A DNA stretch of 60,401 nt from Chiloscyllium plagiosum. Lineage: Eukaryota. How positions within the stretch are numbered: the first letter of the stretch is position 1; every line of letters begins with the position of its first letter. A program made the translations under genes and the position numbers. The notes beneath the pieces were generated by a model, which had not been told where the DNA came from, made no database searches, and saw nothing but the letters and a program-made list of their open reading frames with translations. The DNA lies in contig NC_057759.1 in the NCBI RefSeq assembly GCF_004010195.1, positions 4,018,649-4,079,049 of the forward strand, read 5' to 3'. Shown here in pieces: positions 1-29,782 of this stretch.

Positions 1-1939
1 TGACTGAGTCAGGCCTCATCGCAGCAAGTCTGTCCTGTAAGGATATTGTACAAATTTTTGTTTCTGTAAACGACAGCTTCAACACAATGTAATTTAACTC
101 CTGGCCTGGAAAACTGTCATTAACAACCCTTTCATTTCATGTACACTTCAAGTTAGTTGGAATCTCAGTGAAGAGGTAATGTATGTGAGGGCAGATTGGA
201 TAGGTTTGATGGATAGTTTGGGCAGTATTGGTCAGATAGATAGACAGGCAGATAAGATATTTCCTGGTAAAACTTTGAGCATCATGTTTTTATAAGATTA
301 AATTATGTTGCAGTAAAGATATCGTTGTTTAAAGGAGTGCTACAAAGGAGTGCACATCTATCAGAATTGCACCATTTCATTAACACTATCACTGCTGAGC
401 CCTGGTTTAATGTGCATGATCACCTTCATATTTTATCCCTTTGGGAAGGATTTGTTGACAAACGTAGGGCTAAGAATGGTGTTACAATCAGTGAGATTTA
501 GAAGTAAGAAAGATTCAAATCACAAACATTAAATCTTAAAATGTGTATGAGAAAAATACACTCATTAGACAACAACAGAATGCAGCAACTCCAATGAAAG
601 ATTGGTCCAGTAAAGCATTGAAGTGCTATACCATCTGACAATCTGTCTTAGTGAATTTGTGCCAGAATTCAGACACTTAATAAATCATTTGATGCATTAC
701 TTACTGTTTTGATGGAATGGGAGAATCCAGCTAACGTTCGCATGTAACGGTTTGTGTCAAAATGGGATAAGCATCAATTATTGCCAGAAAAGAAACAGTC
801 CTGAAGCTGGCAGCCTCTCCAAGTGTCTCTCTCCACATAGAGTGTGTGAATTGCACTGACAAACTCTGCAAGAATCTCTGTCGAATCTTATTTCGACACT
901 TCCCTCTTTTTAAATCCTTTAAAGGACTTGCACTGCAGTCAGTGGAGAGTTTTTTTTTCCCTAAAAATGCGTGAAAGCAATGTTGCAATTGCCTGATTAA
1001 ATGGAAAGAAGAAGAGAAAATGTGCAAGCATTTAAAACCATATTGGTATTTCAGATGGGTGGGTATCAGTGCAGCTTCGAATTGCACCTCACTCCGCAGT
1101 GTGTGCAATAGACAGAACTGTGTCTGAAAACCTTTCTTTGAAAAAAAAGAGCGAGGGCACTCTGCAATATTCCATACGTGTTACCCCTGACAGAAGGAAT
1201 GTTTAATTGGAGGCAACATCTCAACATTTATGGAATACACAATTAAGTGCTTTCCCTGTTGCCTTCAGCAGAGAGAACGAAAATAGATTAAAATACACCA
1301 GTACAAACTCCAAGCTTTGAGTGATGGCACCGGAGCGGACTGTCTTTAACACTGGTGGGTCCAGCGCAGGATTCCAAGTGGTAGCATTGGCATTGGCTTT
1401 CAACGGCAGGGAACCTCTGCAGTCCATGGAGAAGACAGCATCTGTGTCAGTGTCAGATAACTGCATTAATGCATTAGACCTGAATCCATATTCCGGGTAG
1501 ATTGCCAGGAACAGCAGTAGCTTCAGCGGCGGTGTGGGCGACCCAATGTGGGCTCCCCCAGATTAGATTGTGTGGGCAAAACATGACAATGAGGAGGAGA
1601 TCGATCCCTTGTAGCAAATGCAGGCCCAGGGTAGATAAACACTTTCGAATTAATGGAATGTTTGACTTCTCATTTTATTTCTTCATTTTTTTAACTTAAT
1701 ACAAAGAATTACGATAACACTGAACTTTTAACTTTGTTCTTTCTTTTGATATTTTTCTTATATTTCTGTTTTTATGTACTTGTACCTAAGATGGTGCCTT
1801 GTGTGGTGACATTACACACTTTCCATTGTATTCCTGTACTTGTGTACATGTGACAATAAAATCTAAATCTGAGAAAGGCAATGTTAAACCAGATTTGGGT
1901 GTACCTTGTACACCAGTCATTGAAAGTAAGTATGCAGAT

Positions 1940-2790
1940 AAAGTCATAGAGTTATACTGCACAGAAACAGACCCTTTGATCCAACTCATCCATGCTGACC
2001 AAATATCCTAAACTGATCTCGTCCCATTTACTACCATTTGGCCCATTTCCCTCGAAATCCTTTTTTATTCATGTAACCATCTAAAGGCCTTTAAATATCG
2101 TAATTATAACCATCTCCACCACTTCCTCTGGCAGCTCATTCTATGCAGTCACCACGCTCTGCATGAAAAAGTTGCCTGCTTTTAAATTTTACCCCCCTCA
2201 ACTCGAACTCTTGCCCTCTGGGTTCGATCTCTCCTACCTTCAGAAAAAAAAAACCGTTGGCTGTTAACCCTGTCCATGACCCTCATGAATTTACAAATCT
2301 CTGCGAAGGTCACCCTGGTGCTAAGAAATGCATGAAATTGGAGGAAAGAGGGATATGTTTCCTGTAAGTGAAGACAGTTTTAGTACGGAATGGCAAAATG
2401 TGTTGGCATGGACTTGGAGGGCCGTAGGACCTGTTACTGTTCTTTGTTCCCTCTTAGACTCTGACACTCACAGACAATAAAGCTCCAGTCCAGTAAGCCC
2501 CTACCTATAGCTCCTTCCAGCCTTTCCTGAATCTTTCCAAGTTTAACAACATCTTTAGCAGGGAGACCAGAATTGAAAGCAGTATTCTAAACGTGGCGTC
2601 ACCAATCACTTTATAGCCGCAATGAGACACTCAGTATTTTGACCGATGAAAGCAAGTCTGCCAAACACTTTCTTTACCACCCTGTCAACGTACAACTCGA
2701 CTTTCAAGGAACTATACACAAATACCTCTATGTCTCTTTGTTCAGGAACACTTCCCAGAATCCTACCATTAACTGGATAAATTCTGCCCA
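1940..2790 (-). mobile_element. CR1/HER1-type LINE 3' fragments (duplicated at ~4250-5095)
   Basis: Minus ORF 'VNGRILGSVPEQRDIEVFVYSSLKVELYVDRVVKKVFGRLAFIGQ' is typical of the CR1 RT C-terminus; 3' tail 'gtcatagagttatactgcacagaaacagaccc'. Confidence 0.8.
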
Positions 2791-2829
2791 GGTCCAGATG
2801 CAGAAGACAGTAATGAAATTGTGTATTGA

Positions 2830-3265
2830 CCTTCATAGTGAGAGGATTAGAGTACAGGAGCAGGGATGTCTTGCTTCAGTTGTACAGTGCATTGCTGAGG
2901 CCAGAGTTGGAAGATTGAGGTCTTGGTCTCCTGATCTGAAGAAGGATGTTCTTGCTCTAGTGGACGTGCAGCAAAGGTGCATCAGATTGATTCCTGGAAT
3001 GGCAGGGCTGACGTATGAAGGAGATCGAATCAGTTCAGATTGTGTTTGCTGGAGTTTAGGTGAATGAGAAATTGCAGCATATTGTATAGCACTGCAGCGT
3101 CACAGTGCCAGTGACCCGGTTTCGATCCCAGCCTTAGGCAATATCTGTTTGGAGTTTGCGTATTCTTCCCGTTTCTGCATGGGTTTCCTCCCACAATCCA
3201 ATGATGTGCAGGTTTGGAGAGTTTTCCATGCTCAATTGACAATTGTGTTCAGCGATGTGTACGTT
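2830..3265 (+). mobile_element. CR1 LINE fragment followed by a decayed HE1-type SINE (duplicated at ~5135-5570)
   Basis: 'WSPDLKKDVLALVDVQQRCIRLIPGM' CR1 motif, then SINE body 'cacagtgccagtgacccggtttcgatccc...ggtttcctcccacaatcc'. Confidence 0.75.
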
Positions 3266-3418
3266 AGGTACACAAAGTTAAAAATCACACAACATCAGGT
3301 TATGGTCCAACACGCTTATTTGGAAGTACTAGCTTTCAGAACGCTGCTCCTTCATCAGGTCGTGGTGAAACAGAATCATTAGACACAGGATTTATAGCAA
3401 AATGTGACAGTGTCATAC

Positions 3419-5723
3419 ACAGAACTGTGTCTGAAGACCTTTCTTTGAAAAAAAAGAGCGAGGGCACTCTGCAATATTCCATACGTGTTACCCCTGACAG
3501 AAGGAATGTTTAATTGGAGGCAACATCTCAACATTTATGGAATACACAATTAAGTGCTTTCCCTGTTGCCTTCAGCAGAGAGAACGAAAATAGATTAAAA
3601 TGCACCAGTACAAACTCCAAGCTTTGAGTGATGGCACCGGAGCGGGCTGTCTTTAACACTGGTGGGTCCAGTGCAGGATTCCAAGTGGTAGCATTGGCAT
3701 TGGCTTTCAACGGCAAGGAACCTCTGCAGTCCATGGAGAAGACAGCATCTGTGTCAGTGTCTGATAACTGCATTAATGCATTAGACCTGAATCCATATTC
3801 CGGGTAGATTGCCAGGAACAACAGTTGCTTCAGCGGCGGTGTGGGCGACCCAATGTGGGCTCCCCCAGATTAGATTGTGTGGGCAAAACATGACAATGAG
3901 GAGGAGATCGATCCCTTGTAGCAAGTGCAGGCCCAGGGTAGATAAACACTTTCGAATGAATGGAATGTTTGACTTCTCATTTTATTTCTTCATTTTTTTA
4001 ACTTAATACAAAGAATTACGATAACACTGAACTTTTAACTTTGTTCTTTCTTTTGATATTTTTCTTATATTTCTGTACCTATGTACTTGTACCTAAGATG
4101 GTGCCTTGTGTGGCGACATTACACACTTTCCACTGTATTCCTGTACTTGAGTAAATGTGACAATAAAATCTAAATCTGAGAAAGGCAATGTTAAACCAGA
4201 TTTAGGTGTACCTTGTACACCAGTCATTGAAAGTAAGTATGCAGATAGAGTCATAGAGTTATACTGCACAGAAACAGACCCTTTGATCCAACTCATCCAT
4301 GCTGACCAAATATCCTAAACTGATCTCGTCCCATTTACTACCATTTGGCCCATTTCCCTCGAAATCCTTTTTTATTCATGTAACCATCTAGAGGCCTTTA
4401 AGTATCGTAATTACAACCATCTCCACCACTTCCTCTGGCAGCTCATTCTATGCAGTCACCACGCTCTGCATGAAAAAGTTGCTTGCTTTTAAATTTTACC
4501 CCCCTCACCTCGAACTCTTGCCCTCTGGGTTCGATCTCTCCTACCTTCGGAAAAAAAAACATTGGCTGTTAACCCTGTCCATGACCCTCATGAATTTACA
4601 AATCTCTGCAAAGGTCACCCTGGTGCTAAGAAATGCATGAAATTGGAGGAAAGAGGGATATGTTTCCTGTAAGTGAAGACAGTTTTAGTACGGAATGGCA
4701 AAATGTGTTGGCATGGACTTGGAGGGCCGTAGGACCTGTTACTGTTCTTTGTTCCCTCTTAGACTCTGACACTCACAGACAATAAAGCTCCAGTCCAGTA
4801 AGCCCCTACCTATAGCTCCTTCCAGCCTTTCCTGAATCTTTCCAAGTTTAACAACATCTTTAGCAGGGAGACCAGAATTGAAAGCAGTATTCTAAACGTG
4901 GCGTCACCAATCACTTTATAGCCGCAATGAGACACTCAGTATTCTGACCGATGAAAGCAAGTCTGCCAAACACTTTCTTTACCACCCTGTCAACGTACAA
5001 CTCGACTTTCAAGGAACTGTGCACAAATACCTCTATGTCTCTTTGTTCAGGAACACTTCCCAGAATCCTACCATTAACTGGATAAATTCTGCCCAGGTCC
5101 AGATGCAGAAGACAGTAATGAAATTGTGTATTGACCTTCATAGTGAGAGGATTAGAGTACAGGAGCAGGGATGTCTTGCTTCAGTTGTACAGTGCATTGC
5201 TGAGGCCAGAGTTGGAAGATTGAGGTCTTGGTCTCCTGATCTGAAGAAGGATGTTCTTGCTCTAGTGGACGTGCAGCAAAGGTGCATCAGATTGATTCCT
5301 GGAATGGCAGGACTGACATATGAAGGAGATCGAGTCAGTTCAGATTATATTTGCTAGAGTTTAGATGAATGAGAAATTGCAGCACAGTGTATAGCCCTGC
5401 AGCCTCACAGTGCCAGTGATCTGGTTTCGATACAAGCCTTGGGCATCATCTGTCTGGAGTTTGCGTATTTTCCCGTGTCTGCATGGGTTTCCTCCCACAA
5501 TCCAAAGATGTGCAGGTTTGGAGCGTTTTCCATGCTCAATTGACAATTGTGTTCAGCGATGTGTACGTTAGGTACACAAAGTTAAAAATCACACAACATC
5601 AGGTTATGGTCCAACACGCTTATTTGGAAGTACTAGCTTTCAGAACGCTGCTCCTTCATCAGGTCGTGGTGAAACAGAATCATTAGACACAGGATTTATA
5701 GCAAAATGTGACAGTGTCATACA
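3419..5723 (+). repeat. Tandem segmental duplication, copy 2
   Basis: Near-identical to 1112-3418. Similarity ends at 'gtgacagtgtcataca' (~5723), inside a Penelope-type terminus. Confidence 0.95.
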
Positions 5724-5834: not shown

Positions 5835-7731
5835 AGATGTTCCTTTGCAGTTCTGAGAAAGTGTGGCCCTCAGAACAGGGCTGACTGTAGAGACGTTAGG
5901 TGCTGGCGCATTGCTGTTACAGTCAGCCCTGCCTCAACTGAGGGCCACACTCTCTAAGCACTACAAAGGACCCCTCCTGTACTATATATCCGTTGCTCCC
6001 GATGCAATCTCCTCTATATTGGGGAGACTGGACGCCTTCTCACAGAGCGTTTTGGGGAACATCTCCGGGACACCCGCACCAATCAACCCCCACTGCCCCG
6101 TGGATCAACATTTCAACTCCCCCTCCCACTCTGCCGAGGATATACAGGTCCTTGGGGTTCCTCCACCACGGCTCCCTCACCACCCGATGCCTGGAGGAAG
6201 AAAGCCTCATCTTCTGCCTCGGAACATCCCAACCCCAGGGCATCAATGTGGACTTCAACAATTTCCACATTTCCCTGCCCCACACCTTACCACAGTTCCA
6301 AACTTCCAGCTCAGCACCATCCTCATGACCTGTCCTACTTGCCAATATTCCTTCACACCAATCCACTCCACCCTCCTCTCTGACCGATCACATTTATCCC
6401 CACCCCATCCACCCATTGTACTCTTTGCTACCTTCCCCCACACTCCTCTCTGACCTATTACCTCCATCCCACCACCATCCACCTATTGTATTTTGCTACC
6501 TTTTCTCCAGCCAACCCCCTCCCATTTATCTCTCCATCCTGGAGGTTCCCTGCCTCCATTCCTGATGAAGGGCTTTTGCCCAAAACTTCGATTTTCCTGC
6601 TCCTCGGATGCTGCCTTGACTGCTGTGCTTTTCCAGCACCACTCGAATCTACGCTCTAGTTTCCAGCATCTGCAGTACTCACTTTTGCCTATTTAATTTT
6701 AACCTTACTGCGAATCCTCTTGCAAGGATGACGACCTTGAAGAAGTTATCCTCCTCTCTCAAGAACCTCAGCGAGTGTCTCTCTCACTGCAACCGCCAGA
6801 TCATATCCTCTGCCCTGAAATTCTTCAACCATGTCCTGAAACAGACCCGCTACCAGAGCCACATCTGCTAATTCAGTGCTTGCCTCTACAGCCAATTGAT
6901 CCCCCATGGACTCCGTACTACATTTAAACCTGAAGCTTGGACCCGAACGGGACAACCACTACAGATTCAAAGCCACCAGCAACAGCTTTCCTTCAGGATC
7001 CTCCGCTCCACACTCGCTGCAATACGCCGGCACCTAACCTCTCTACAGTCAGTCCTGTCTCAGCTGAGGGACACACTCTCTCAGAACTGCAAAGGACACC
7101 TCCTGTGCTATATATCCATTGCTCCCAATGCGGTGTCCAATTCATTGGGGAGACTGGATACCTTCTCGCAGAATGCTTCAGGGAACATCTCCGGGACACC
7201 CGCACTAATCGACCCAACATTTCAACTCACCCTCCCACTCTGCCCAGGACACGCAGGGCCTGTCCTTGGAGGCATGTCCTTGGCTTCCTCCATCGCTACT
7301 CCCCCACCACGCGACGCCTAGAGGGAGATACGCCTCATCATCTGCCTCGGAACACCCCAACCCCAGGGCATCAATGTGGACTTCACCAGTTTCATCATTT
7401 CCACACCCCCCATCTTACCACAGTTCCAAACTTCCAGCTCAACACCAGCCTCATGACCTTTCGTACCTGCCAATCTTCCTTCCCACCTATCCAATCCACC
7501 CACCTCTCTGACGTATCACCTTCAACACTACCCCCACCCATCCATTGTACTCTTTGCTAACTTCTCCCCAGCCCCACCCCTCTCCCATTTATCTTTCCAC
7601 CAAAGAAGTTCCCTGCCTCCATTCCTGATGAAGGGCTTTTGCCTGAAATGTCGATTTTTCTGTTCCTCGGATGCTGCCTGATCTGCTGTGCTTTTCCAGC
7701 ACCTCTCTAATCTAGACTCTGGTTTCCAGCC
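5835..7731 (+). mobile_element. Internally deleted Penelope-like element in partial tandem (pseudo-LTR) arrangement with a short 5' inversion
   Basis: GIY-YIG endonuclease remnants ('YIHCSQCGVQFIGETGYLLAECFREHL'; 'EESLIFCLGTSQPQGINVDF') occur twice (5990-6270, 7110-7400). Each is followed by the same C-rich 3' region and hammerhead-like motif (6562, 7625). 5845-5913 is the reverse complement of 7018-7090. Confidence 0.85.
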
Positions 7732-7754
7732 TTACGATCTCTAAAACCAGGAGT

Positions 7755-9478
7755 GTTATTAATAATATGTTCTGTTCACTTTCTGTTTTGTGAATATGAG
7801 AATGCTGTTATCAACTTCTACCTCTCAGTTTCCGCTCTGAGAATGTGAGTGCTATATTCAGTTTCTGACTGTCAGTTTCTGTGCTGTCAACACTTGAGTG
7901 TAATTATCAATTCTTTTCTTGTCAGATTCTTCACTTTGAATATGTGTGTTTATCGACCTGTACCTGTCAATGTCTTAAGAGAATGTTGGTATGAGTTTCT
8001 TCCTGTGAATACATGTTACGTGAACAAGTGTGTGTCCTCAATATGCCCATGTCAGTTACTGCACTGAGAATGTGCGACTGTGTTATCAAGATGCACTTCT
8101 CAGTCTCTGCTATGTGAAAATGAGTGTATAGTTATTCAACATTGTCTGATATTTTCTGCTGAGTAAGCATGAGTGCACAGTTTAATCTTCGCCCCTCAGT
8201 ATCCGCTATGTCAATTTAGTTATCGATCTACAACAATGAGTTCCTGCCTGGTGAATGTGTAGTGTAGTTATTATTATGATCTTGTCAAGTTCTGGTCTGT
8301 GTGTATGTGAGTTTTGTTATAGATCTATTTATGTTACTTTCTGCTCTGTGATTATTTGAATGCAGCTATCAATCTGTCCAAGCTATGTGAATATGAGAGT
8401 ATAGTTATCAAAATGTATGTTACTTTCTCGTCTGTGAATGTGTAGACTGTATTTTTTTTCATCCTGTACTTCTTAGTTTCTGATATGTGACTCTGTGAGT
8501 GCAGGCATTATTCTATATCTACCAGTTTCAGCTACCTCTACAAGTGAGCTCAGTTATCAACCTGGACCTGTCAGATTCAGCAATGTGAATGTATGAATGC
8601 AGTTATCAATCTGTACCTGTCAATTTCTGCTCTAGAATCTGAGAGAGCAGTTATTCACATATTTTTGAATATTTTATTCCTTTACAAAATATAAATGTTA
8701 ATTTACGTGTAATTATCCTTCTATCCCTGTCCATGTATGCTACGTGCAACTGGGAGTGTAACTATCAATCAGTACCTTCAGCTTCTGCATTGTAGATATG
8801 ACAGTGTAGTTATCAATCTTTCTCTGACGGTTGCTGCGATGTGAATATGTGAGTGTACTTACCAATCTGTCCATATCAGTTTCTGGTGTGTGAATGGGTG
8901 AATGCAATTACTAATTTGTACCTGTCAGATTTTGAGATGTTAGTGTGTAAGTTTATATATGAAACCTGTCCCTGATAGTTTCAGTTATGAGAATGCAAGT
9001 ATTGAATCAGATTCTGGAATGTGAATGTGTAGATACGGTCATCTGTGTAGGAATATCAATTTCTGCTCTGAATATGTGACTAGTTGCAATCTGTACCTGT
9101 CAGTTTCTGTTACATGAATGAATGATGATAGTTGTTAACCTGTTCCTGTCAGTTTGTGCTGTTAATGTGTCAGTGTAGTTAACAGTGTGCATCTGTCAAT
9201 TTCTGCTAGGCGAATGTGTGAGATTCTGTGAGAGTCTGCTGTGTGATGGTTTCAATATAGTTATCAAACTGAGCTTGACATTTTTTTTCTGTGACTATGA
9301 TAGCGTAGTTATAAATCTTTACTTCTTAGCTTATGCTGTGGGAGCATTCTTTTCAGTTTCTGCTATGTGCATATAGTTATCCATCTGAGTCTGTCGGTTT
9401 ATGCTATCGAAATATGTGAATGCTGGTGTCAGTCCATGCCTCTCAATTTCTGCTACGTCAATATGTGAGGTTAGTTAT
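7755..9478. repeat. Degenerate ~50-bp minisatellite
   Basis: Recurrent consensus approximately 'gttatcaatctgtacctgtcagtttctgctatgtgaatgtgtgagtgca' throughout (e.g. 8553, 8602, 8810, 9085). Confidence 0.85.
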
Positions 9479-9817
9479 AGAACATAGAACATAGAAAAAT
9501 ACAGCGCAGTCCAGGCCCTTTGCCCCTCGATGTTGCGCCGATCCAAGCCCACCTAACCTACACTTGCCCACTATCCTCCATATGCCCATCCAATGCCCGT
9601 TTAAATGCCCATAAAGAGGGAGACTCCACCACTGCTACTGGCAGGGCATTCCATGAACTCACGACTCGCTGAGTAAAGAATCTACCCCTAACATCTGTCC
9701 TATACCTACCACCCCTTAATTTAAAGCTATGCCCCCTCGTAATAGTTGACTCCATATAGTAAAAATGGTTCTCATGGTCAACCGTATCTAAACCCCTAAT
9801 CATCTTGTACACCTCGA
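9477..9817 (-). mobile_element. Young CR1/HER1 LINE 3' end, running into a gap
   Basis: (atagaac)n tail; minus ORF 'YKMIRGLDTVD...TRGHSFKLRGGRYRTDVRGRFFTQRVVSSWNALP'. Confidence 0.92.
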
Positions 9818-10317
9818 NNNNNNNNNNNNNNNNNNNNNNNNNNNNNNNNNNNNNNNNNNNNNNNNNNNNNNNNNNNNNNNNNNNNNNNNNNNNNNNNNNN
9901 NNNNNNNNNNNNNNNNNNNNNNNNNNNNNNNNNNNNNNNNNNNNNNNNNNNNNNNNNNNNNNNNNNNNNNNNNNNNNNNNNNNNNNNNNNNNNNNNNNNN
10001 NNNNNNNNNNNNNNNNNNNNNNNNNNNNNNNNNNNNNNNNNNNNNNNNNNNNNNNNNNNNNNNNNNNNNNNNNNNNNNNNNNNNNNNNNNNNNNNNNNNN
10101 NNNNNNNNNNNNNNNNNNNNNNNNNNNNNNNNNNNNNNNNNNNNNNNNNNNNNNNNNNNNNNNNNNNNNNNNNNNNNNNNNNNNNNNNNNNNNNNNNNNN
10201 NNNNNNNNNNNNNNNNNNNNNNNNNNNNNNNNNNNNNNNNNNNNNNNNNNNNNNNNNNNNNNNNNNNNNNNNNNNNNNNNNNNNNNNNNNNNNNNNNNNN
10301 NNNNNNNNNNNNNNNNN
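9818..10317. other. Assembly gap (500 N)
   Basis: Run of N. Confidence 1.
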
Positions 10318-10611
10318 TCTCCGAGACCGACTGTATTCTATTTGTGACGAGCCCGTACCTTTGACAAAGTTAACATGCCCTTGAGTTTTTTTTCGCCAGT
10401 GACGGGGTAGTTGGTCAGGCTCCAAATAGGCTGAGTTTGAACTGTGTATTGGGCCATCTTTGTTTATCCCTAACAGATAAGCCCTCCAGCCTTTCATGTC
10501 TTAAAAAGCAAAGCTGGAAAATCAAAGGGGGAGTGGCTGGCTAGCTGTGTAGCTAACCATCGTTAAGTTTAGATTTTTTTTTAATTCAGTTCAGCAGCAG
10601 TGTATGTTATT

Positions 10612-13041
10612 AAAGTTAAAAATCACACAACACCAGGTTATAGTCCAACAGGTTTAATCGGAAGCACACTAGCTTTCAGAGCGACACTCCTTGATCACGT
10701 GATTGTGGAGGGCTCGATCGTAACACAGAATTTACAGCAAAAATTTGCAGTGTGATGTAACTGAAATTATAAGCCTTTCATCTGTTAGAATACAGTGATA
10801 GTTCCACTTCATTCATGTGTAAATCACAAAACTCTTTTTTTTTTAAATTTGCATTCTCGGGTTAGCTGTTAACAATGGTGATAGCTAGACAATATGTTGA
10901 AGGTGCTAGCCCCCTGTGTTCTCTGTCTATGACTTGATGTTTAGATTGATTCTAATCTAAAAAGTGAGATAACGGAGTAACCAGTCGAACCGGGAACATT
11001 TCTCGTCACAATGCACATTTCCGTACTCTACACCAGTAACCCCACAAGGATGGCCTCGCGGCAACAGCCTCAGTACTCAACACCAACAACTGCCAGTCTC
11101 CAAACACCATCCTACAACTCATCCGCTTTATCCTCGATCATAACGTCTTCACCTTTGACAATCAATTCTTCATCCAGACACACGGAACAGCCATGGGGAC
11201 CAACTTTGCACCCCAATATGCCAAAATTTTTATGCACAGGCTCGAACAAGATTTCTTCTCTTTGCAGGATCTCCAACCAACATTGTACTTCCGCCCAGCT
11301 CGCGCCACTCTCTGCTGTGAGAAGACCATTGGCGTCAAGGTAAGTTCTTTATATATCAGTCACTTACCTTCCCGACCAGCTCTGCGCTCCAACCTCACTT
11401 CCGCCCAGCTCGCGCCACTCTCTGCTGTGAGAAGACCATTGGCGTCAAGGTAAGTTCTTTATATATCAGTCACTTACCTTCCCGACCAGCTCTGCGCTCC
11501 AACCTCACTTCCGCCCAGCTCGCGCCACTCTCTGCTGTGAGAAGACCATTGGCGTCAAGGTAAGTTCTTTATATATCAGTCACTTACCTTCCCGACCAGC
11601 TCTGCGCTCCAACCTCACTTCCGCCCAGCTCGCGCCACTCTCTGCTGTGAGAAGACCATTGGCGTCAAGGTAAGTTCTTTATATATCAGTCACTTACCTT
11701 CCCGACCAGCTCTGCGCTCCAACCTCACTTCCGCCCAGCTCGCGCCACTCTCTGCTGTGAGAAGACCATTGGCGTCAAGGTAAGTTCTTTATATATCAGT
11801 CACTTACCTTCCCGACCAGCTCTGCGCTCCAACCTCACTTCCGCCCAGCTCGCGCCACTCTCTGCTGTGAGAAGACCATTGGCGTCAAGGTAAGTTCTTT
11901 ATATATCAGTCACTTACCTTCCCGACCAGCTCTGCGCTCCAACCTCACTTCCGCCCAGCTCGCGCCACTCTCTGCTGTGAGAAGACCATTGGCGTCAAGG
12001 TAAGTTCTTTATATATCAGTCACTTACCTTCCCGACCAGCTCTGCGCTCCAACCTCACTTCCGCCCAGCTCGCGCCACTCTCTGCTGTGAGAAGACCATT
12101 GGCGTCAAGGTAAGTTCTTTATATATCAGTCACTTACCTTCCCGACCAGCTCTGCGCTCCAACCTCACTTCCGCCCAGCTCGCGCCACTCTCTGCTGTGA
12201 GAAGACCATTGGCGTCAAGGTAAGTTCTTTATATATCAGTCACTTACCTTCCCGACCAGCTCTGCGCTCCAACCTCACTTCCGCCCAGCTCGCGCCACTC
12301 TCTGCTGTGAGAAGACCATTGGCGTCAAGGTAAGTTCTTTATATATCAGTCACTTACCTTCCCGACCAGCTCTGCGCTCCAACCTCACTTCCGCCCAGCT
12401 CGACAGACTTAAGACACTCTGCACTCACTACACACACACACACAAACACACACACGCACGCTTTCTCACACTCACAACCCTCACCACAGACAGACACACA
12501 CACAGACAGACAAAGACCCACATGCACACATATATTTTGTGTGGTGAATTTGTACTTGCAGAGTTACATTGCACTTTGTTCAAAAACTGCATACATTCAT
12601 GTAGAACTCTGAGCTCAAAAACTGCATGAATTTATGTAAAATTCTGTTATCTCACTTTTTAGATTAGAATTAATCTAAACATCAGGTCATAGACAGAGAA
12701 CACAGGGGGCTAACACCTTCAACATATTGTCTAGCTATCACCATTGTTAACAGCTAACCCGAGAATACAACTTAAAAAAAAGGGTTTTGTGATTTACACA
12801 TGAATGAAGTGGAACTATCACTGTATTCTAACAGATGAAAGGCTTAACAGATTTCAGTTACATCACACTGCAAATTGTTGCTATAAATTCTGTGTTACGA
12901 TCGAGCCGTCCACAATCACCCGATGAAGGAGTGTCGCTCCACGAGCTCGTGTGCTTCCAATTAAACCTGTTGGACTATAATCTGGTGTTGTGTGTTTTTT
13001 AACTTTGTACACCCCAGTCCAACACCGGCATCTCCAAATCG
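10612..13041 (+). mobile_element. Penelope-like element with inverted arms, RT fragment and internal tandem array
   Basis: 10612-10978 is the reverse complement of ~12642-13007. The RT fragment at 10995-11290 reads 'FTFDNQFFIQTHGTAMGTNFAPQYAKIFMHRLEQDF'. There is a 3' tail extension at 13007-13040 and a TSD 'tgttattaaag' at 10605-10615 and 13042-13052. Confidence 0.92.
11287..12402. repeat. Tandem array of a 110-bp unit, ~10.1 copies, apparently invariant
   Basis: Unit 'ccgcccagctcgcgccactc...ctccaacctcactt' starts at 11291, 11401, 11511 ... 12281, with a partial copy at 12391. No differences seen between units by eye. Confidence 0.99.
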
Positions 13042-13421
13042 TGTTATTAAAGGCTGTTTGTTGTCTCCCACCTCCTAGCCTTCTCACTTCATAACCTGTG
13101 AACTTTTTGTGTCATTTTTAATATTTGTGCTAAAGCGGTTGTTTAAGTAGATTGTTGCGTTAATCTTTGGAACAGCATCATTAAGTTGGGATAGTCTGTC
13201 GGCTTTGGATATGATAGGCTATCTGATATTCTATTTTCTGTTCTTTGTGCTTTATCCCATATTTTGGCAAATAAGTTCTTTTTGTTTAAACATAGGCAGG
13301 CAAATCAACCAATTCACTCCTGGAATATCCACCATACATTTTACGAAGCAAATAGAAAATTTACAAACAGGGCTACCAGCTAAAGAATATTTAGAGGGTT
13401 CGGGCCTGGTCCTTAACAGAT

Positions 13422-13440
13422 TGGGGGCTCTTTGCCGGAT
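13422..13440 (+). promoter_or_regulatory. Primer-binding site, tRNA-Pro-like (degenerate)
   Basis: 'tgggggctctttgccggat' lies 3 nt after the LTR end; the canonical tRNA-Pro PBS is TGGGGGCTCGTCCGGGAT. Confidence 0.75.
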
Positions 13441-16400
13441 TTAGACAGCGAGTAGTAGATGTTAGTGCCTTTATTTCTGGTCTTGATTTGGTTGATTTAC
13501 ACAGTAATGGCTCGGATAGCAATGGTTCTTTCTGTCTTCAAGAGCTTTCTGGGAGTGGAACAGATGACCTTGTGGTTTTTACAAAAGGTGGTTAAGGCCA
13601 AGCTGCAGGAATTAGCAGACAAGCTTGGTTTGGCGCTGTCTTCTAAAGTGAATAAAGATGAGATGATTGCAATAATAGCTCAGCATTGAACTTTGATGGA
13701 AACACCATCAGCAAATGTAGAGATGGCAAGAATGCAATTACAAATGAAACATCCTGAATTAGATCGAGAGATAAGGAAAGGCAACAGAAATGAAAATGTT
13801 TGAGTTAGGATTAAAATTGGAGGAGAAAGAAAAAGAACGAAGGGCTTTAGCAATAGAGAAAGAAAATGAATGTTTGAACTTCAGAAAATGACACTTAGAA
13901 ATGAAAGTCAGCTGAAAAGGATGGACATGAAGGCTGAACGTAAGCTTAGTGTGGAAGAGCATAGAGTTAAAACGGCGAGTTTAGCAGCTGGAATGGCTGA
14001 TGATCATGAGTTGATGATAAAACTCGTTTTGGCTTCAAGAATCAATTTCGAACACGGGAGGGAAAGAAAATGGGGAAAGTAGAAATCCTCACGTGTAAGG
14101 TGAAAGGTAGATCTCAGTGAAGACCATAAAGAAAACTTACTGCAAGGTAAAACGGAAACCATTAAAAGGAGCAAAGAAGTCAAAATGCTTTAGTGTTTTC
14201 ATTGCAAGACAATGGGTCACAAGGAATCACTGTGTTTGTCGGCTCGGGAAAAAAAAAAGCCAGATGTAGGAAAACAGGATAAGCCTGGGAATTTTGTTGA
14301 AATGGTAACATATAGCACAGTGGAAGCTAAGAAAACGGCGTCAATGTGTAAGCTGATCGGAGATTGGTTAATGAGATAGTGCCTGATCTGCATAGAATAT
14401 ATACCTGCAAAGATAAAGTTTATTCTCGTAGGTCAGGAGTAGCAGGTAATGAGTTTAGAATATTAAGGAGCACAGGATTCTCTCAGTCTGTGATGCTGAA
14501 GAATAAGGAGATATGTACTCCTGGGGACTATTGCCAGAAAAGGTACTGGTAACGGGAACTCATGGTCTGAAAAAGGCAGTCAATTATATAAGGTGAGGCG
14601 AGGGTGTCCAGAAAAGAGAATTTGTTTTAGGAGTACTGGACAAACTCTCAGCTCCAGGAATACAGTGTGTCTTTGTGTATGACAGAACCGATTCACCAGT
14701 AGGTGTACCGCCTAACGTAGACGACAAGCCAGTTGAGAATCAGGCAACTGAAGCAATGCAGGAGTTTTACCCTGGAATCTTACCTGATTGTGCAGTAACG
14801 AGGTCACAGAGGCACCAGTTGAAACAGGAGAGATCAAAGGTTATAGATAAGGAAGCTGCAGTGGCATTAGCAGAGACTATGTTCAATCAGATGGTTGAGA
14901 TAGAACAAGAATGAATAGATCATTGTGCAACTATCTAGCTCTGCAAAGCTAGATACAGCAGAAAGATGAACATTTGTATCAAGAGGCATATACAGAGACA
15001 GAATCTGAATGTATCTCTAAGTGCTATTACCTGAAAAATTGAGTCTTAATGAGGAAATCGAGACTATCACATAGTCAAACAGATCAGAAATAGCAAGAAA
15101 TTCAACAAATTGTCTTGGCAGTGGGGTGTGGAAGGAAGATATTGTAACTGGCGCATGAGCAATCGCTTGGAGGCCATTTTGGAGTGAGAAAAATAAAGGT
15201 TAAATTCCAAAAAAAAAACATTTCTAATGACTAGGGCTGCACAGGAATGTAGTTGATTTTTTCCATATGTGTCACACATGTCGTGAAAGTGGAAAACCAC
15301 AGGCGAAAATAAAAGCTGCACTTCTAATACCTGCTCCAGCATTTGAGGAACCTTTTACAGAGTCTTAATTGATTGTGTAGGTCCCCTACCTCAAACAAAA
15401 TTATGAATCAGTATTTGTTAACAACAATGGATGCATCGAGCAGATTTCCAGTGGCTATTCATTACGCAAAATGACAGCTCGAATTATTATAGAGGAATTA
15501 CTCAAATTATTTACTAAATACGGACTACCAAGAGAGATACAGTTCGATCAAGATTCCACTTCTCATCAAAATGATTCAAGGAAGTTACGGACAACTTAGG
15601 AATAAAACAATTAATGTCTACTGCATAACATCCAGTTTCGCAGCGAATGCTAGAAAGGTGGCATCAAACACTAAAGACCATGTTAAGGGCTTATAATCAT
15701 GACTGTCTAGATGAATGGGTTAGGGAATTCTCTTTGTGCTATTTGCGAACAGAGATGCAGCAAATGAATCGATCATATTCTGTCTTGGTTTCTGGGTATA
15801 AAGTGAGAGGACAATTAAAATTAATTAAGGAGAAATGGGTAAGTCAGAATTCAGAGATCACACATTTGGATAGGTTTCAAATTTTTGGGAGCGATTAAAT
15901 GGAGCTAGGGTGTTGGCTAAACAGCATTTAAAACTATTGCAGTTTGCAATGAAACATGAAGCAGGCAAGAAATCAAAAATTCGCGATTTTGCTATTGGGG
16001 TACGATATGAGTGTTACTTCCAGTAATAGGTGAATCTTTAAAAGCAAGGTTTAGTGGGTGGTATCAAATCGAAACGATATTGTGTGAGGTGAATTACTCG
16101 ATAGAGACTCCAGACAGAAAGAAATCTCACAAGATGTGTCATGTGAATATGTTCAAGCTGTATTTTGATATGTAAGGAAAGCAAGAGGAGAAGATGTTTA
16201 ATGATTACAGAAGGAAGAACCTAGTTCAGAGGATTCTGAACAGGACATTCTTCAAAGTAAATTGGACAATGAGGAACTCGTCAAAAATTGGGAGAAATTA
16301 TTGAGTTACCTTCCTGAGAAAATTGAAATAACCTGGAAGAGTTATGACGATCACATGAGAAGATATATGGAAATAAACGCGAAGTGATAATCTAATTTTA

Positions 16401-17631
16401 CATGAAGTAGATATAGAAGATATTGTTCCGATTAAGCAACATCCTTATAGGCATAAACCTCTAACATTGGCACAGGTTTAGAAGCAACATTTGAACGCAA
16501 GCTCCACGATGACGTAATTGAAGTGAGTTACAGTGACTGGGGCTAACCTATAGCAATGGTACCAAAGCCAGATGACACCCAACGGTTATGTGTAGACTAT
16601 TGCAAAGTGAACGCAGTTACAACGACTAATACACATCAAATTCTGCGGTTGGAAAACTGTATTGAAAAGATGGGACAAACAACTTACATTTCTAAGTTAG
16701 AATTGCTCAAAGACTACCTTGCAAGTAACCTCGTCAGGAAAAGCAAAGGCAATGTCAACTTTCATAACGCCAAACGGTGTATATCAGTTTAAAGTCATGT
16801 CACCTAGTATGAAAAACACTCGGGCCATATTTCAGAGTCTGACCAATAAGGTCGCTGTTGATTTATCGAACTTGTTCGATGGACTTCAGAAGGCAAGCTT
16901 TCTGGTAAACCCAACTAAAAGTGAATTTGCCAAAGCCCAAGGCAACTTCCTGGGCCATGTTAGTGGACATGGGCAAATGGCTCATAGGGTTTCATAAACA
17001 AACGGAGTCGGGAATTCCCATACCATCGACAAAATGAGCAGAACTACGGTTACTGGGATTGAGTGGTTGTTGTCAAACTTTTCTGCGGAATTTCAACAGT
17101 GTAGCTGCTCTACTCACTGATTTGCTAAATAAAGGCAAGATGTTTCAGTAGACAGCAGACTGTCAGAAGGCGTTTAGCAGCCTGAAAGCTATGTTAACCA
17201 CTGGCCCGGTATTAGCCACGCCTGATAGCAGAAAGCTTTTCAAGCTGGTTATCAATGCGAGTAATGTAGGTGTCGGTGCTGTGCGCCTGCGGGACGACGA
17301 GGAGAAAAAAATGAAGAACCAGCAGGTATTTCTCTAGGACGTTCAACGTTCATCAGCAGAAAGATTCAACAGTTGACAAAGGGACTTTGAGCTTCGTGTT
17401 GGCATGACAATATTTCAGTGTCGATATCACCAGAAATGCATCTGAGACAGTCGTAAACACTGTTTATAGCCCATTGCAATTTGTGGAGAAAATTAAGGAC
17501 AACAACTCCAGACTGTTTAGATCGAACCTGTTGTTACAGCGATTAAAATTGAAAATTATGCATGTAGCAAATCGTGAAAATGTGATTGCCGATGCATTGT
17601 TGAGACTTAAAAGACAGATGAAGGCCTTTAT

Positions 17632-17893
17632 CTAGATTACTTACATTGTGGAAACAGGCCCTTCGGCTCAACAAGTCCACACCGACCCGGCAAAGCGCAA
17701 CTCACCCATACATTTACCCCTTCACCTAACGCTACGGGCAATTTATCATGATGGCCAATTCACCTGACCTGCACATCTTTGGACTGTAGGAGGAAACCGG
17801 AGCACCCGGAGGAAACCCACGGAGACACGGGGAGAATGTGCACACTCCACATAGTCAGTCGCCTGAGGCGGGAATTGAACCCGGGTCTCTGGC
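17632..17893 (-). mobile_element. HE1-type SINE inserted between RNaseH and PPT
   Basis: 'tagattacttacattgtggaaacaggcccttcgg...ggaaaccggagcacccggaggaaacccac...ggaattgaacccggg'. Confidence 0.92.
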
Positions 17894-17977
17894 CTTTGGT
17901 GTTGGGAGAACCATAGACTATATCCAAATGTAGTTGTGCATGTTTGAAGCTAGGTTTTGATATTGATGTTATTTTTT

Positions 17978-17988
17978 AAAGGGGGAGG
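17978..17988 (+). promoter_or_regulatory. Polypurine tract
   Basis: 'aaagggggagg' immediately before TGTGACG of the 3' LTR. Confidence 0.85.
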
Positions 17989-18628
17989 TGTGACGAACCT
18001 GTTGCTTTAACAAGGTTCTTAGTCACTTGAGTTCTTTTGCAGAGACAGACTAATTGTGTAGGCTTCAACGAGGCTGGGTTTGAAAGGTATATTTGGGCCA
18101 TATTTGTTTATCCCAAAAAGATAATGTCTCTGGCCTAAGCCTTTCGTGTCTTTCAAAAAAAATCCCAGTGTAATAAAAGGGGAGTGACCAGCTTGCTAGG
18201 AAGCTAGCCTTCGTTTAGATTAGGGATTTTGATTCAGCTCAGCATCAGTATGTGTTAAGGTAGGCAGGTGGTTCTCTCCCTCCTTCCACCCTTTGACTGC
18301 GTAACCTGGAAGCTTTATGTATCATTTTAAATCTTTGTGTTAAGGGTCTGTTTATGGGGATTGTTGTAAGAATCTTTAGAACAGCATGATTAAGTCGGGA
18401 TAGTCTGTTGGGTTTGGATAGGATAAGATATTCGGTGCTCTATTTTCTGATCTTTGTGTTTCATTCCGCAATTTTGTAAATTAATTCTGTTTGTTTAAAA
18501 CTTGACAGTTGAATCAGCTAATTCACTCCGGAAATATCCACAACACACTTACCTAAAAATAAAGCAACGTTACGGTCTGGACTACGCAGCTTAAGAATGT
18601 GTTGAGCAGTCGGGTCTGTTCTATAACG
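17989..18628 (+). repeat. 3' LTR
   Basis: Colinear with the split 5' LTR (shared 'gggccat.tttgtttatccc', 'ttaagt.gggatagtctgt', 'aattcactcc.ggaa'); ends 'ctataacg'. Confidence 0.88.
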
Positions 18629-19281: not shown

Positions 19282-19788
19282 AGTAAAACATCATTGACTG
19301 GGATGAAACAACGCGATCAGGATTTGTTGAATTCATTGTCTGAGAGCCAGAGAAGTTTCTGGGCGGAGAAGCGCACTAAAAGATCAAGTAAACAGAAGAA
19401 ATGATTTCTCAAGAGGAGCTCTGGAGACCAACAATCGCCAAGTAATTACCCTGAAGTCATCTTCAAGTGGACAGAGAACTATGAGGCAAGATCATCACAA
19501 AGAGCAAAGGTGGCCATGACGCTATCCAAATGTACAGAGTTCGGGTTAAATGTGAACTAAATTAAACAAGTTATATTTGAATTTAAGTCAGATGAGGTAA
19601 GACGCGAATGCATGCTTTATATTGAGTGTTGGTATCTAAATGTTTAAATAAAGATTGGTTTGTTTATTTAAGTACTGATTTGATTCCTCACCTTTCTGTC
19701 TGCAAGATATCTTGGGAATAGAGGTTCAGTGTCCCTTCTGACAATGTGGCAATCTAGAACTGATGTCTTCTTCTGTTTTGATCCAAAC

Positions 19789-20079
19789 CTGAGAAGTTGA
19801 GGGCAGGCACCTCATTGCAGTTGAAATCACGGGCAATAGCATTTGCAGCACAGCAGAAGTATACGGCGCCCTCCCCCTCAGTTGGCACGGTGACATTGTA
19901 AGTTGCTATCCAAGAGGGAATGACTGTCATATTACCGAGGAGGTCGTGGCGATGACAGTACTGCAAGAGGTTTATCAGCAGTCTCCCTTTTTTGGAGGTA
20001 CACTGGACGGTAAAACGGTCACCAACGGACACCACAGATCTTTTCAAATCTGAACTGATGGATGGGCAGCTCACTGGGA
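19789..20079 (-). CDS. Ig C2-type domain exon, Fc receptor-like/PECAM-like (open frame, phase 1-1)
   Basis: Acceptor 'tttttatctctcctcgccag|tc', donor 'tcag|gtttgg', 291 bp. Encodes 'PVSCPSISSD...GDRFTVQCTSKKG...LLGNMTV....ATYNVT...VYFCCAANAI', resembling FCRL domains (PVSxP, CxxxxGxxPI, YxCxAxN). Confidence 0.75.
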
Positions 20080-20749
20080 CTGGCGAGGAGAGATAAAAAG
20101 CAGGAATCAATTAAATCCCAAACAGCAAAAGTAATTATCCCACTACAAATTGCACACGGAGATGACTTTTCGCACGAAGACACAACTCAAGTGGGGAAGG
20201 TGAAGATTTTGATACAGTTACTGAGTGACAAAAGTCTTTAGTACAGACAGAGACCCATCAGCCTATTGAGCCTTAACAGGTAAAGCAAGTACCTTGCTAT
20301 TCTAATCAAATTTTAATCAGGGCTGCTCCTTAGGGCTAAAGGGATCAAAGGTTTTGAGGTGAAAGGGGAACGAGAGCACTGAGTTGGATGATCAGCCATG
20401 ATTAGATTGAATGGAGAAACAGGCTTCGAAGGGCCGAATAACCTACTCCTGCTCCTATTTTCAGTGATGCTATGAATGAAGGAATCAAATGAAGGTCAGT
20501 GATGGTCTCCCACATATTAAAAAGACATGCATGACTGAGCTGTGCTGACATATCTCAATTTACTTCATTTCGATTAACATTATGTGACTTCCATTTACTT
20601 ATAATTTGTTTCACTTGATCTTACAATAACGAAAATACCAACTATCGATCAACCTTAACTGGTACTGAGAAATTCAACTAACAATTAAGATACTTCACTA
20701 AGTCCAAATAAACATCATTGAAATCTTTGTTTGTTACTGCTATTATTTT

Positions 20750-23650: not shown

Positions 23651-23937
23651 CTCAACTTTAATCTTCACCATGACTATGAAATGCATTTCCCAGGCCATTG
23701 TAAACAGTGCAGCTGTACAGACCATCGGCACTCTCATCCAGATGTTGAATTCGGTTTATGACCTCCAGCCTGGATGAGGTCTCCTCACCAATGACATGGT
23801 TTCCCCTGTACCAAGTGTACAACAGCGGCAGGAAACCGCCAGTGATGCCACAGGCCAATGTCAGATTACCCCCCTCACGAATCGTGCCATTCACGGGTGG
23901 ATCACTAGCCAAATGGATTTGTTCGCGACGGGAATTC
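23651..23937 (-). pseudogene. Frameshifted Ig C2-type exon of the same FCRL-like gene
   Basis: 'EGGNLTLACGITGGFLPLLYTWYR...DGLYSCTVYNGLG'. Acceptor 'ttttccactgtag|ga' gives 'IPVANK' in a different frame from the body, the C-terminal 'MVKIKVE' needs a further frameshift, and there is no GT donor after it. Confidence 0.75.
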
Positions 23938-24378
23938 CTACAGTGGAAAACACCATTGTCAGGGCTAGCAGTAAGAGGAGGACTGTCAGCCACATTCCAT
24001 ACGATTGTTATTGATTCTATTTTGGTTTCAACTCCACTTTCCTGCCTCCATTCCCTTTAAAATTCCGTTTAACAGAATAAAGATCTATCCCCTCCTAAAA
24101 TATATTGAGTCACCCAGTGTAACACCCACACACTCTGTGGTGAGGAGGTGAATTCGCACAAATTGACAACCAACCTCACTTTGAGAGAAGTCATTCCTCC
24201 TCAGCTCTGCTTTAAATCTGCCCCATTCCCTTCTTAAATTAAATAAAGAAGGATTTGTTTAATTAAGTAGAGTCAGTTTCGCACCTTATTGTCTGAAGGA
24301 TACCCGAATAAAGATTGAGTGTCCCCTCAGAGAACTTGGCAACCTGGAAATGATGATTTCTTCCGCATTGACCCATAC

Positions 24379-24666
24379 CTGACAAAGTGAGGGCAAATGG
24401 CTCACTACAGACAATGTGGGTAACAGCGTTTGCAGCACAGCAGGAGTAAATGACATCTTCCTCTTCAGGTGGCATGGTGACATTGAAAGCGGCTGCTCTC
24501 GAGCCAGTGACTGTTGTGTTACCCAAGAAGTGGTGGCGGTGACCGTACAGCAAGACGTTTATAGGCAGCGTCCCCCTTTTTAAGGTGCACTGACTGGTAA
24601 AGTGGTTTCCAACCGACACAACAGACACCTTCAGATCTGAGCAAATGGATGGGCAGCTCGCAGGGA
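24379..24666 (-). CDS. Ig C2-type domain exon, paralogue of 19789-20079 (open frame, phase 1-1)
   Basis: Acceptor 'ttctcttccctccccag|tc', donor 'tcag|gtatgg', 288 bp. Encodes 'PASCPSICSDLKVSVVSVGNHFTSQCTLKRGTLPI...IYSCCAANAV'. Confidence 0.75.
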
Positions 24667-24694
24667 CTGGGGAGGGAAGAGAAAATTCAGTCAT

Positions 24695-29282: not shown

Positions 29283-29782
29283 NNNNNNNNNNNNNNNNNN
29301 NNNNNNNNNNNNNNNNNNNNNNNNNNNNNNNNNNNNNNNNNNNNNNNNNNNNNNNNNNNNNNNNNNNNNNNNNNNNNNNNNNNNNNNNNNNNNNNNNNNN
29401 NNNNNNNNNNNNNNNNNNNNNNNNNNNNNNNNNNNNNNNNNNNNNNNNNNNNNNNNNNNNNNNNNNNNNNNNNNNNNNNNNNNNNNNNNNNNNNNNNNNN
29501 NNNNNNNNNNNNNNNNNNNNNNNNNNNNNNNNNNNNNNNNNNNNNNNNNNNNNNNNNNNNNNNNNNNNNNNNNNNNNNNNNNNNNNNNNNNNNNNNNNNN
29601 NNNNNNNNNNNNNNNNNNNNNNNNNNNNNNNNNNNNNNNNNNNNNNNNNNNNNNNNNNNNNNNNNNNNNNNNNNNNNNNNNNNNNNNNNNNNNNNNNNNN
29701 NNNNNNNNNNNNNNNNNNNNNNNNNNNNNNNNNNNNNNNNNNNNNNNNNNNNNNNNNNNNNNNNNNNNNNNNNNNNNNNNNN
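29283..29782. other. Assembly gap (500 N)
   Basis: Run of N. Confidence 1.

What the first reader, a model, noticed from the sequence alone, without database searches (positions are those of the whole stretch)
11287..12402. Invariant 110-bp x10 array with promoter motifs and splice donors on both strands replaces the core of a Penelope element
Seen: ten apparently identical 110-bp units with 6 CpGs each retained, in otherwise decayed, CpG-poor DNA. Each unit contains a GC box (ccgccc), an ETS-type site (cacttccg), CCAAT (attgg), a CRE half-site (cgtca) and tatata. It also has a 9-bp inverted repeat aaggtaagt...acttacctt that places a consensus AAG|GTAAGT donor on both strands around the TATA-like loop, and an internal subrepeat (cttcc(c)g.ccagctc(t)gcgc). 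The array starts at 'LQPTLY', a few codons before the expected YxDD of the PLE RT, and the rest of RT and the GIY-YIG domain are missing. Inference: a captured promoter/first-exon monomer (possibly a LINE 5'UTR monomer) amplified by rolling-circle-like or repeated template-jump reverse transcription and carried as cargo between PLE arms.
Basis: partly seen in the sequence, partly recalled or inferred. Interest (0 to 1): 0.75.

Follow-up and report, generated by a model that had tools for sequence, protein, structure and literature searches.

The report
Orphan LINE promoter array inside Penelope
Ten identical 110-base units fill the middle of a dead Penelope-type jumping gene in a shark genome; the unit is a slightly decayed copy of a common repeat that is likely the front-end promoter piece of a different jumping gene, and the array was likely pasted in or multiplied long after the Penelope copy landed, so the locus is probably a one-off accident, although one public sequencing run holds this unit with a 53-base intron-shaped piece cut out exactly.

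Summary
The array is in the sequence as described: 10 x 110 bp plus 16 bp, no differences, replacing at least 1.1 kb of a Penelope element (PLE) with inverted arms and an 11-bp target duplication. The unit is not PLE-specific. It is a dispersed multi-copy repeat in several shark species, tandem elsewhere too, with a shared body on one side and variable flanks on the other: likely a LINE 5' monomer on the minus strand (CR1 label from earlier scan notes, untested here). It reads one way: donor, TATA, anti-donor, acceptor. One run of four laid holds the 53-nt GT-AG piece removed exactly. The CCAAT and CRE motifs and the ninth pair of the inverted repeat are CpG-decay changes not carried by the family majority; the plus-strand donor is the hairpin's other arm. 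The PLE arms differ at 6%, the units at 0%, so the array is far younger than the PLE (or assembler-made), which argues against cargo amplified during PLE copying. Junctions and copy number are unverified. The scan found this monomer design before on other DNA.

The parts
10605..10615 (+). Left copy of the 11-bp target site duplication of the PLE insertion (last 4 bp shared with the arm end)
10612..10976 (-). Inverted, 5'-truncated copy of the PLE end (left arm)
   Evidence: 340 matches, 22 mismatches, 3 gaps against 12643-13006; a contig of organism A matches 10420-10636 with no difference
10981..11288 (+). PLE reverse transcriptase fragment (about residues 179-281 of a 643-aa relative), frameshift near 11040; last 2 bp shared with the array
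   Evidence: 89% identity to Chiloscyllium proteins with PF00078; tblastn
11287..12402 (-). Array of 10 identical 110-bp monomers plus 16 bp; likely LINE 5' monomer, antisense to the PLE, no LINE body attached
11315..11367 (-). 53-nt GT-AG intron-shaped segment of unit 1 (same in every unit); holds TATA, anti-donor, branch-like motif and pyrimidine tract
   Evidence: exact removal in one contig of run X16
11362..11370 (-). Splice donor and arm 2 of the inverted repeat
11347..11355 (-). TATA box in the hairpin loop, 26-32 nt upstream of the places where other genomic copies end
11337..11345 (-). Anti-donor, arm 1 of the inverted repeat (reads as a donor on the plus strand); 11337 is a CpG-decay change
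11322..11328 (-). Unit positions 36-42: where other copies of the family give way to unrelated flanks; predicted transcription start
   Evidence: 5 of 8 listed loose-end rows; start site is inference
11396..11406 (-). GC box overlapping an ETS-type site at the unit boundary, inside the 57-nt exon-like part
   Evidence: singly at 5-7% by chance
12403..13041 (+). PLE 3' region and right arm (12643-13006); degenerate hammerhead-like core near 12920-12950 (motif recalled; no Rfam hit)
   Evidence: 47 contigs of run X1 continue leftwards from 12403 into normal PLE sequence
13042..13052 (+). Right copy of the 11-bp target site duplication
10343..10609 (+). Left half of the older repeat (likely an LTR) that the PLE interrupts
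   Evidence: 70% like 17989-18257; colinear
13051..13417 (+). Right half of the same older repeat
   Evidence: 74% like 18262-18627; colinear

Best explanation
The array is ten identical copies of one decayed unit of a dispersed shark repeat that is likely the 5' promoter monomer of a LINE, and it likely replaced the core of an already old Penelope copy in a single recent repair event, leaving a locus predicted to be inert. Shown: array, PLE frame, target duplication, multi-copy family, tandem copies elsewhere, decay changes shared by all units, 2-bp and 0-bp junction overlap, one exact splice-type joint. Inferred: (1) in its parent element the monomer reads on the minus strand, the TATA of one unit starts RNA about 30 nt downstream at the head of the next, and the TATA lies in a 53-nt intron whose donor is paired with an anti-donor, which would limit splicing and keep upstream promoters in the RNA that is copied; (2) a break inside the PLE was resected and patched by synthesis on a foreign template, either a homogenised monomer array or a unit-length circle excised from one and copied round ten times; (3) both ends joined by micro- or no homology, losing at least 1.1 kb of PLE.
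For: Family: 21 of 24 listed runs hold part of the unit, 10 studies, organisms A-D (shares under 0.2 not counted as evidence; laid runs with cover: X1, X9, X10, X12, X15, X16). In X1 21-48 different contigs carry the other letter at each of four places; depth 1,400-137,000 over the unit against 13.7 on the unique flank (summed depth is not a copy number). Terminus: 5 of 8 listed loose-end rows behind 12401/12402 leave the monomer at unit position 36-42, 1 runs on as monomer, 2 stop short; 5 of 8 rows before 12339-12356 share one continuation, 1 is monomer, 2 differ. Tandem joint of period 110 in X1, X10, X12; the X1 contig fits 15 letters where this allele would fit 16, so it is another array. 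Splice joint: unit position 28 to 82 in an 88-nt contig of X16, depth 103; 11 of 7810 possible deletions have such ends. Age: 3.0% per arm predicts 34 substitutions, 0 seen; 95% bound 0.27%. Array ends are at unit positions 1 and 16, neither the natural start (36-42) nor the body joint (67-74).
Against: The unit differs from the family majority at 4-5 of 110 places, about as much as the PLE has aged (3%), which fits old capture followed by local expansion equally well. The lost PLE part (at least 1089 nt of ORF by a relative, plus some 3' UTR) is close to the array's net 1114 bp, and the array lies on a 19-kb contig between 500-N gaps, as a gap-fill artefact would. The fall in depth over the TATA part is strong in X1, mild in X16 and absent in X12. 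The splice joint is one contig in 1 of 4 runs, from organism B, and its RNA label is a guess. The hairpin fold is not stronger than shuffles by much (z -1.1 to -1.9). The link of the body to CR1 ORF1 was not tested.
Confidence: 0.45

Rival explanations
1. Old capture, young expansion: a piece of 126-240 bp from a monomer array was captured when the PLE inserted (template switch of its RT, skipping 1.1 kb), aged with it, and was recently expanded in place by slippage or unequal exchange across its 16-bp direct repeat.
For: Unit divergence from the family majority (4-5 of 110) matches the PLE's 3%; PLEs capture host DNA between pLTRs (PMC3846280, passages); short flanking repeats seeding minisatellites is a described route (PMC6947457, passages).
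Against: Needs two RT jumps, the first onto an antisense template, then nine gains with no mutation and no aged unit left at either edge. No passage on template jumping in PMC11167929.
Confidence: 0.2
2. Assembly product: junctions and two or more identical units are real but the assembler looped through them to fill the estimated distance; or, less likely, the fill is wrong altogether.
For: Perfect identity; fragmented assembly (N runs at 9818-10317, 29283-29782, 47304-47317); array length near the missing PLE length; a 2.3-kb tandem duplication of uncertain reality nearby.
Against: Target duplication and colinear flanks show that both sides belong to one insertion. Junction overlaps of 2 and 0 bp are too short to cause an overlap mis-join, and assemblers usually collapse such arrays (general knowledge). 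Period-110 tandems exist in raw-read contigs.
Confidence: 0.18
3. A LINE with ten or more monomers inserted antisense at 12402/12403, cut short inside its first monomer; a later deletion with 2-bp microhomology removed its body and the PLE core.
For: Uses only ordinary steps; orientation fits (5' end on the right); earlier scan notes report long arrays on shark CR1 copies (unchecked).
Against: The right end is 20-26 nt short of the natural start; an active parent should carry the majority letters, not CpG-decay letters shared by all units; two events within a very short time.
Confidence: 0.12
4. One reading: a bidirectional promoter/first-exon unit amplified by PLE rolling or repeated-jump reverse transcription and carried as cargo.
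For: Array lies between PLE arms inside one target duplication; plus-strand acceptor-like sites exist 40 and 69 nt after the plus-strand donor; some mouse L1 monomers do fire antisense (PMC6454616, passages).
Against: Age mismatch (34 expected, 0 seen); CCAAT and CRE motifs are decay products; the only splice-type joint seen is minus-strand.
Confidence: 0.05

Closest known systems
Mouse L1Md monomer promoters (A, Gf, Tf) plus tether (PMC6454616, PMC5381506; passages)
   Same: Tandem CpG-rich units at an element end, variable number, common truncation site read as the start site, expansion by unequal exchange.
   Different: 110 bp, built on a TATA box inside a 53-nt intron with a donor hairpin; no YY1 start motif looked for or needed; here the array has no LINE body; promoter activity untested; parent probably CR1, not L1.
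Endonuclease-bearing Penelope-like insertions with an inverted 5'-truncated arm, and Adineta vaga pLTR-flanked captures (PMC8557442, PMC3846280; passages)
   Same: Inverted arms, target duplication of 8-11 bp, foreign DNA between the arms, internal microhomology deletions.
   Different: The foreign DNA is a perfect tandem that is much younger than the arms, and it replaces part of the ORF; the rotifer captures described are single spacers or genes.
L1 SpIREs and human ultra-short introns (PMC5860796, PMC4463651; abstracts)
   Same: Splicing inside a retroelement 5' UTR that removes promoter parts; introns of 37-65 nt can be spliced.
   Different: Intron repeated in every monomer and holding the TATA box; RNA or genomic origin of the spliced contig unknown.
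Minisatellites and satellites derived from transposon pieces (PMC6947457; passages)
   Same: Tandem array of an element fragment, ends forming a short direct repeat.
   Different: Short, single, fully homogeneous array; the source was itself already tandem.

Membership tests
Penelope-like element insertion | PLE-type RT | tested here: met
   52 of 70 candidates at E<=0.001, best 89%; relatives run on to YIDD and a GIY-YIG-type C terminus. The 85-aa piece alone has no Pfam RT hit.
Penelope-like element insertion | GIY-YIG endonuclease in this copy | tested here: not met
   No tblastn match in 11295-13041: deleted
Penelope-like element insertion | Inverted 5'-truncated arm and target duplication | tested here: met
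Penelope-like element insertion | Hammerhead motif in the pLTR | tested here: inconclusive
   0 Rfam hits; degenerate core seen by eye against a recalled motif
PLE cargo capture | Foreign DNA between PLE ends inside one target duplication | tested here: met
PLE cargo capture | Cargo as old as the insertion | tested here: not met
   34 substitutions expected, 0 among units; one ancestral unit could be that old
PLE cargo capture | Same cargo in further PLE copies | tested here: inconclusive
   No genome held; piece tables cut
LINE 5' monomer promoter | Dispersed, multi-copy, tandem in some copies | tested here: met
LINE 5' monomer promoter | At an element end: shared body on one side, clustered ends with variable flanks on the other | tested here: met
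   5 of 8 and 5 of 8 listed rows; 56 further rows not shown
LINE 5' monomer promoter | Body leads to ORF1 and ORF2 of a LINE (CR1) | not testable with these tools
   Loose ends give 30 letters; no copy in the window or in the contig collections. CR1 label from scan notes and recall.
LINE 5' monomer promoter | Attached to a LINE at this locus | tested here: not met
   Both neighbours are PLE sequence
LINE 5' monomer promoter | Promoter activity | not testable with these tools
   Contigs show no starts or strand
Spliced 5' UTR intron (SpIRE-like) | Exact GT-AG removal seen in sequence data | tested here: met
   1 contig in 1 of 4 runs
Spliced 5' UTR intron (SpIRE-like) | Spliced form is RNA or an integrated copy | tested here: inconclusive
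   X16 RNA label is a guess; not listed for DNA run X1 of another organism; for X9, DNA of the same organism, 34 joints and 37 rows were not shown
Known satellite DNA | Unit occurs mainly in long head-to-tail arrays | tested here: not met
   Most listed loose ends run into a shared body or unrelated flanks; tandem joints are single contigs. No shark repeat library available.

The most novel reading that the evidence does not exclude
Shark LINE monomers are self-renewing TATA promoters hidden in a spliced 53-nt intron with a hairpin brake; their arrays shed unit-length circles (110-nt unspliced, 57-nt spliced; the X16 contig is 57+31 long, as a closed loop would be) that are copied round and pasted into breaks, and this locus is a fresh germline rolling-circle insertion that plants ten promoter-intron units firing antisense through a Penelope remnant.
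Probability: 0.15. Interest if true: 0.7.

Novelty: new variant of a known kind. Interest (0 to 1): 0.35.

Why it matters
The locus itself is probably a dead one-off. Its value is indirect. It gives a first piece of sequence-run support that the tiny intron in these shark monomers is really cut at the predicted sites, which makes a TATA-in-intron promoter testable with a 110-bp reporter. I found no description of TATA-based CR1 monomer promoters in the library searched (subscription papers and repeat databases not covered). If the ten copies are real, it is also a clean, young example of how a minisatellite is born from a retroelement promoter away from its parent.

Tried and rejected
No genome held, so no genome-wide search. 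No other copy of the unit or of its shared continuation in the window. Exact patterns found nothing in viral, metagenome (14, 24) or prokaryote (41) contigs. Rfam: 0 hits. No RNA holder listed on record. The best run holds 9 of 14 sampled words, and no listed piece bridges either junction, but 134011 and 838 pieces were not shown and contigs drop variants: no evidence either way. Run X21 had nothing laid. Depth left for this allele at 12327 is 139, ten times the single-copy 13.7: noted, rejected as evidence because summed depth is no copy number and CpG decay is common. X10 joints 'going back 62, 67, 124' have unknown letters between and do not show other periods. Coding reading: plus-strand 67-aa frame gave 1 hit in 1.84 billion, a mussel SRCR-repeat protein at 30% over 33 aa summed over repeats: chance; minus-strand frames are closed within 32 codons. 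Scan look-ups by sequence, relatives and nearby place were blank. Paper searches on rolling-circle insertion gave only listings of reviews, not read. PMC11406177 passages had nothing on this repeat. No supplements were opened; shark repeat libraries in supplements may name the family.

Full report
Observation. Tandem Repeats Finder and a script give 10.1 copies of a 110-bp unit at 11287-12402 with no difference between units; the periodicity stops exactly at both ends. Against 5000 dinucleotide shuffles only the TATA box (0.4%), the inverted repeat (0.8%) and the donor (2%) are unusual singly; GC box, ETS, CCAAT and CRE half-site occur in 5-17%. CpG observed/expected is 0.86, against 0.47 for the rest of the window and 0.77 for the RT fragment next to it.

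The frame. 10981-11288 encodes a PLE RT piece, 89% identical to Chiloscyllium proteins (52 of 70 candidates passed). With 6 of these 52 as queries, the match ends at LQPTLY, two codons before YIDD, and nothing further of the ORF is found at the locus. 10612-10976 is an inverted copy of 12643-13006 (22 mismatches in 362). An 11-bp target duplication (10605-10615, 13042-13052) closes the insertion, and the two flanks are consecutive halves of an older repeat whose second copy lies at 17989-18627. So both sides of the array belong to one PLE insertion of the layout described in PMC8557442 and PMC3846280 (passages). A contig of organism A matches 10420-10636 with no difference, across the left insertion joint. 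The left array junction shares 2 bp with the PLE; the right shares none with the normal PLE continuation seen in 47 contigs. At least 1089 nt of ORF plus some 3' UTR are gone.

What the unit is. No genome was held, so I used public runs. 21 of 24 listed runs hold part of the unit, from 10 studies. Six of seven runs laid cover it (X1, X9, X10; X1, X12, X15, X16; X21 had nothing). In X1, 21-48 contigs carry another letter at each of four places, and summed depth is 1,400-137,000 against 13.7 on the unique flank; this is no copy number but shows a multi-copy family. Loose ends (24 rows listed, 56 not shown) give its context. Towards the left, 5 of 8 rows leave the unit at positions 67-74 into one shared continuation without TATA or anti-donor, 1 continues as monomer, 2 differ. 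Towards the right, 5 of 8 rows follow the monomer to position 36-42 and then run into unrelated sequence, 1 continues, 2 stop short. A shared body on one side and clustered, slightly ragged ends on the other mark an element end. Read on the minus strand, those ends lie 26-32 nt downstream of the TATA box, so I infer a 5' end at the start site, as argued for mouse L1 monomers (PMC6454616, passages). Head-to-tail joints of period 110 occur in X1, X10 and X12, in alleles that differ from this one. Depth over the TATA part is tens of times lower than over the rest in X1, about four times lower in X16 and not lower in X12. That the parent is a CR1 comes from earlier scan notes (e1-8022862 and others) and my recall of shark CR1 leaders; I could not test it.

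Anatomy. On the minus strand each unit reads: GC box/ETS, donor, TATA, anti-donor, branch-like motif, pyrimidine tract, AG; 53 nt from GT to AG. Donor and anti-donor pair in the predicted fold, though only at z -1.1 to -1.9. The plus-strand donor is the anti-donor read backwards. Table 5c lists, for run X16, an 88-nt contig (depth 103) that goes from unit position 28 to 82: exactly this 53-nt piece removed; 11 of 7810 possible deletions of 20-90 nt have a full donor and an AG end, and the joint can slide by only 2. The length 88 is 57+31, as a loop of period 57 would give at word length 31 (word length taken from the tool text; loop is inference), so consecutive spliced units or a circle. It is one contig in 1 of 4 runs, from organism B, and the RNA label is a guess; it may be a spliced RNA or an integrated spliced copy as in L1 SpIREs (PMC5860796, abstract). 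Introns this short are spliced in humans (PMC4463651, abstract). The idea that the hairpin limits splicing to keep promoters in the copied RNA is taken from note e1-8019376 and is untested.

This copy is decayed. The family majority differs at unit positions 35, 42, 51 and 73 (67, 72, 90, 91% of X1 depth; all depth at 35, 42, 51 in X12 and X16). Positions 42 and 51 are CpG in the majority and CpA here. These two changes create the CCAAT box, the CRE half-site and the ninth pair of the inverted repeat. A third possible decay at position 21 is seen in loose ends but not in the difference table. All ten units share these letters, so one aged or minor allele was multiplied.

Timing. The arms imply 3.0% change per copy since the PLE inserted, or about 34 substitutions in 1116 bp; none is seen (95% bound 0.27%). 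The array, as an array, is therefore under a tenth of the PLE's age, or was homogenised, or was made by the assembler. This counts against amplification during PLE reverse transcription. It does not exclude old capture of one unit, since the unit's distance from its family (4-5 of 110) is like the PLE's age.

Mechanism. I favour (0.45) a late, single repair event: a break in the dead PLE, loss of at least 1.1 kb, and synthesis on a monomer array or a unit-length circle, joined with 2 and 0 bp of overlap. Both array ends lie at arbitrary phases, not at the natural start or body joint. Neither junction nor the copy number could be checked in reads.

Novelty. Each layer has a known kind: inverted PLE with foreign DNA, L1-type monomer promoter, intron in a retroelement 5' UTR, element-derived minisatellite. 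The TATA-in-intron monomer was not found in the papers searched but this scan noted it before on other DNA of this and other genomes (unchecked notes). New here: a monomer array orphaned inside another element, and a run contig with the intron cut out exactly. Interest 0.35.

Noticed in passing
window 1108-5723: 2.3-kb head-to-tail duplication, 97.6% identical (53 mismatches, 3 gaps), differences unevenly spread; real segmental duplication or two haplotypes placed in series.
   Followed up: partly
window 10343-18627: Old LTR-retrotransposon-like element: two LTR-like copies only 70-74% alike, broken gag-like and RT-like pieces between them; the PLE sits in the first copy.
   Followed up: partly
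window 19754-20110, 23661-24056, 24266-24718: Immunoglobulin-domain-like reading frames on the minus strand, two of them 72% alike at DNA level; by eye, not scanned.
   Followed up: no
window 46801-47747: Single-exon seven-helix receptor-like frame on the minus strand, split by a 14-N gap; by eye.
   Followed up: no
window 57833-58651: C2H2 zinc-finger array on the minus strand, degenerate, with a SINE-like repeat beside it.
   Followed up: no
window 5857-7700, 35949-37711: Remnants of a second PLE-like family with GIY-YIG similarity (Pfam E 0.008; tblastn 23-25%), partly tandem and inverted.
   Followed up: no
window 7750-9480: Long, degenerate TG-rich region with a ~49-bp period, an old minisatellite-like tract.
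   Followed up: no
run X1/X9/X10 on window 10612-10667: The PLE end itself forms short tandem joints (about 45 back) and has thousands of loose ends at 10612-10618.
   Followed up: no
run X12, X15, X16 loose ends at 12350-12394: Other monomer variants with different continuations, including one with a further donor-like motif, suggest several subfamilies share the GC-rich exon part.
   Followed up: no
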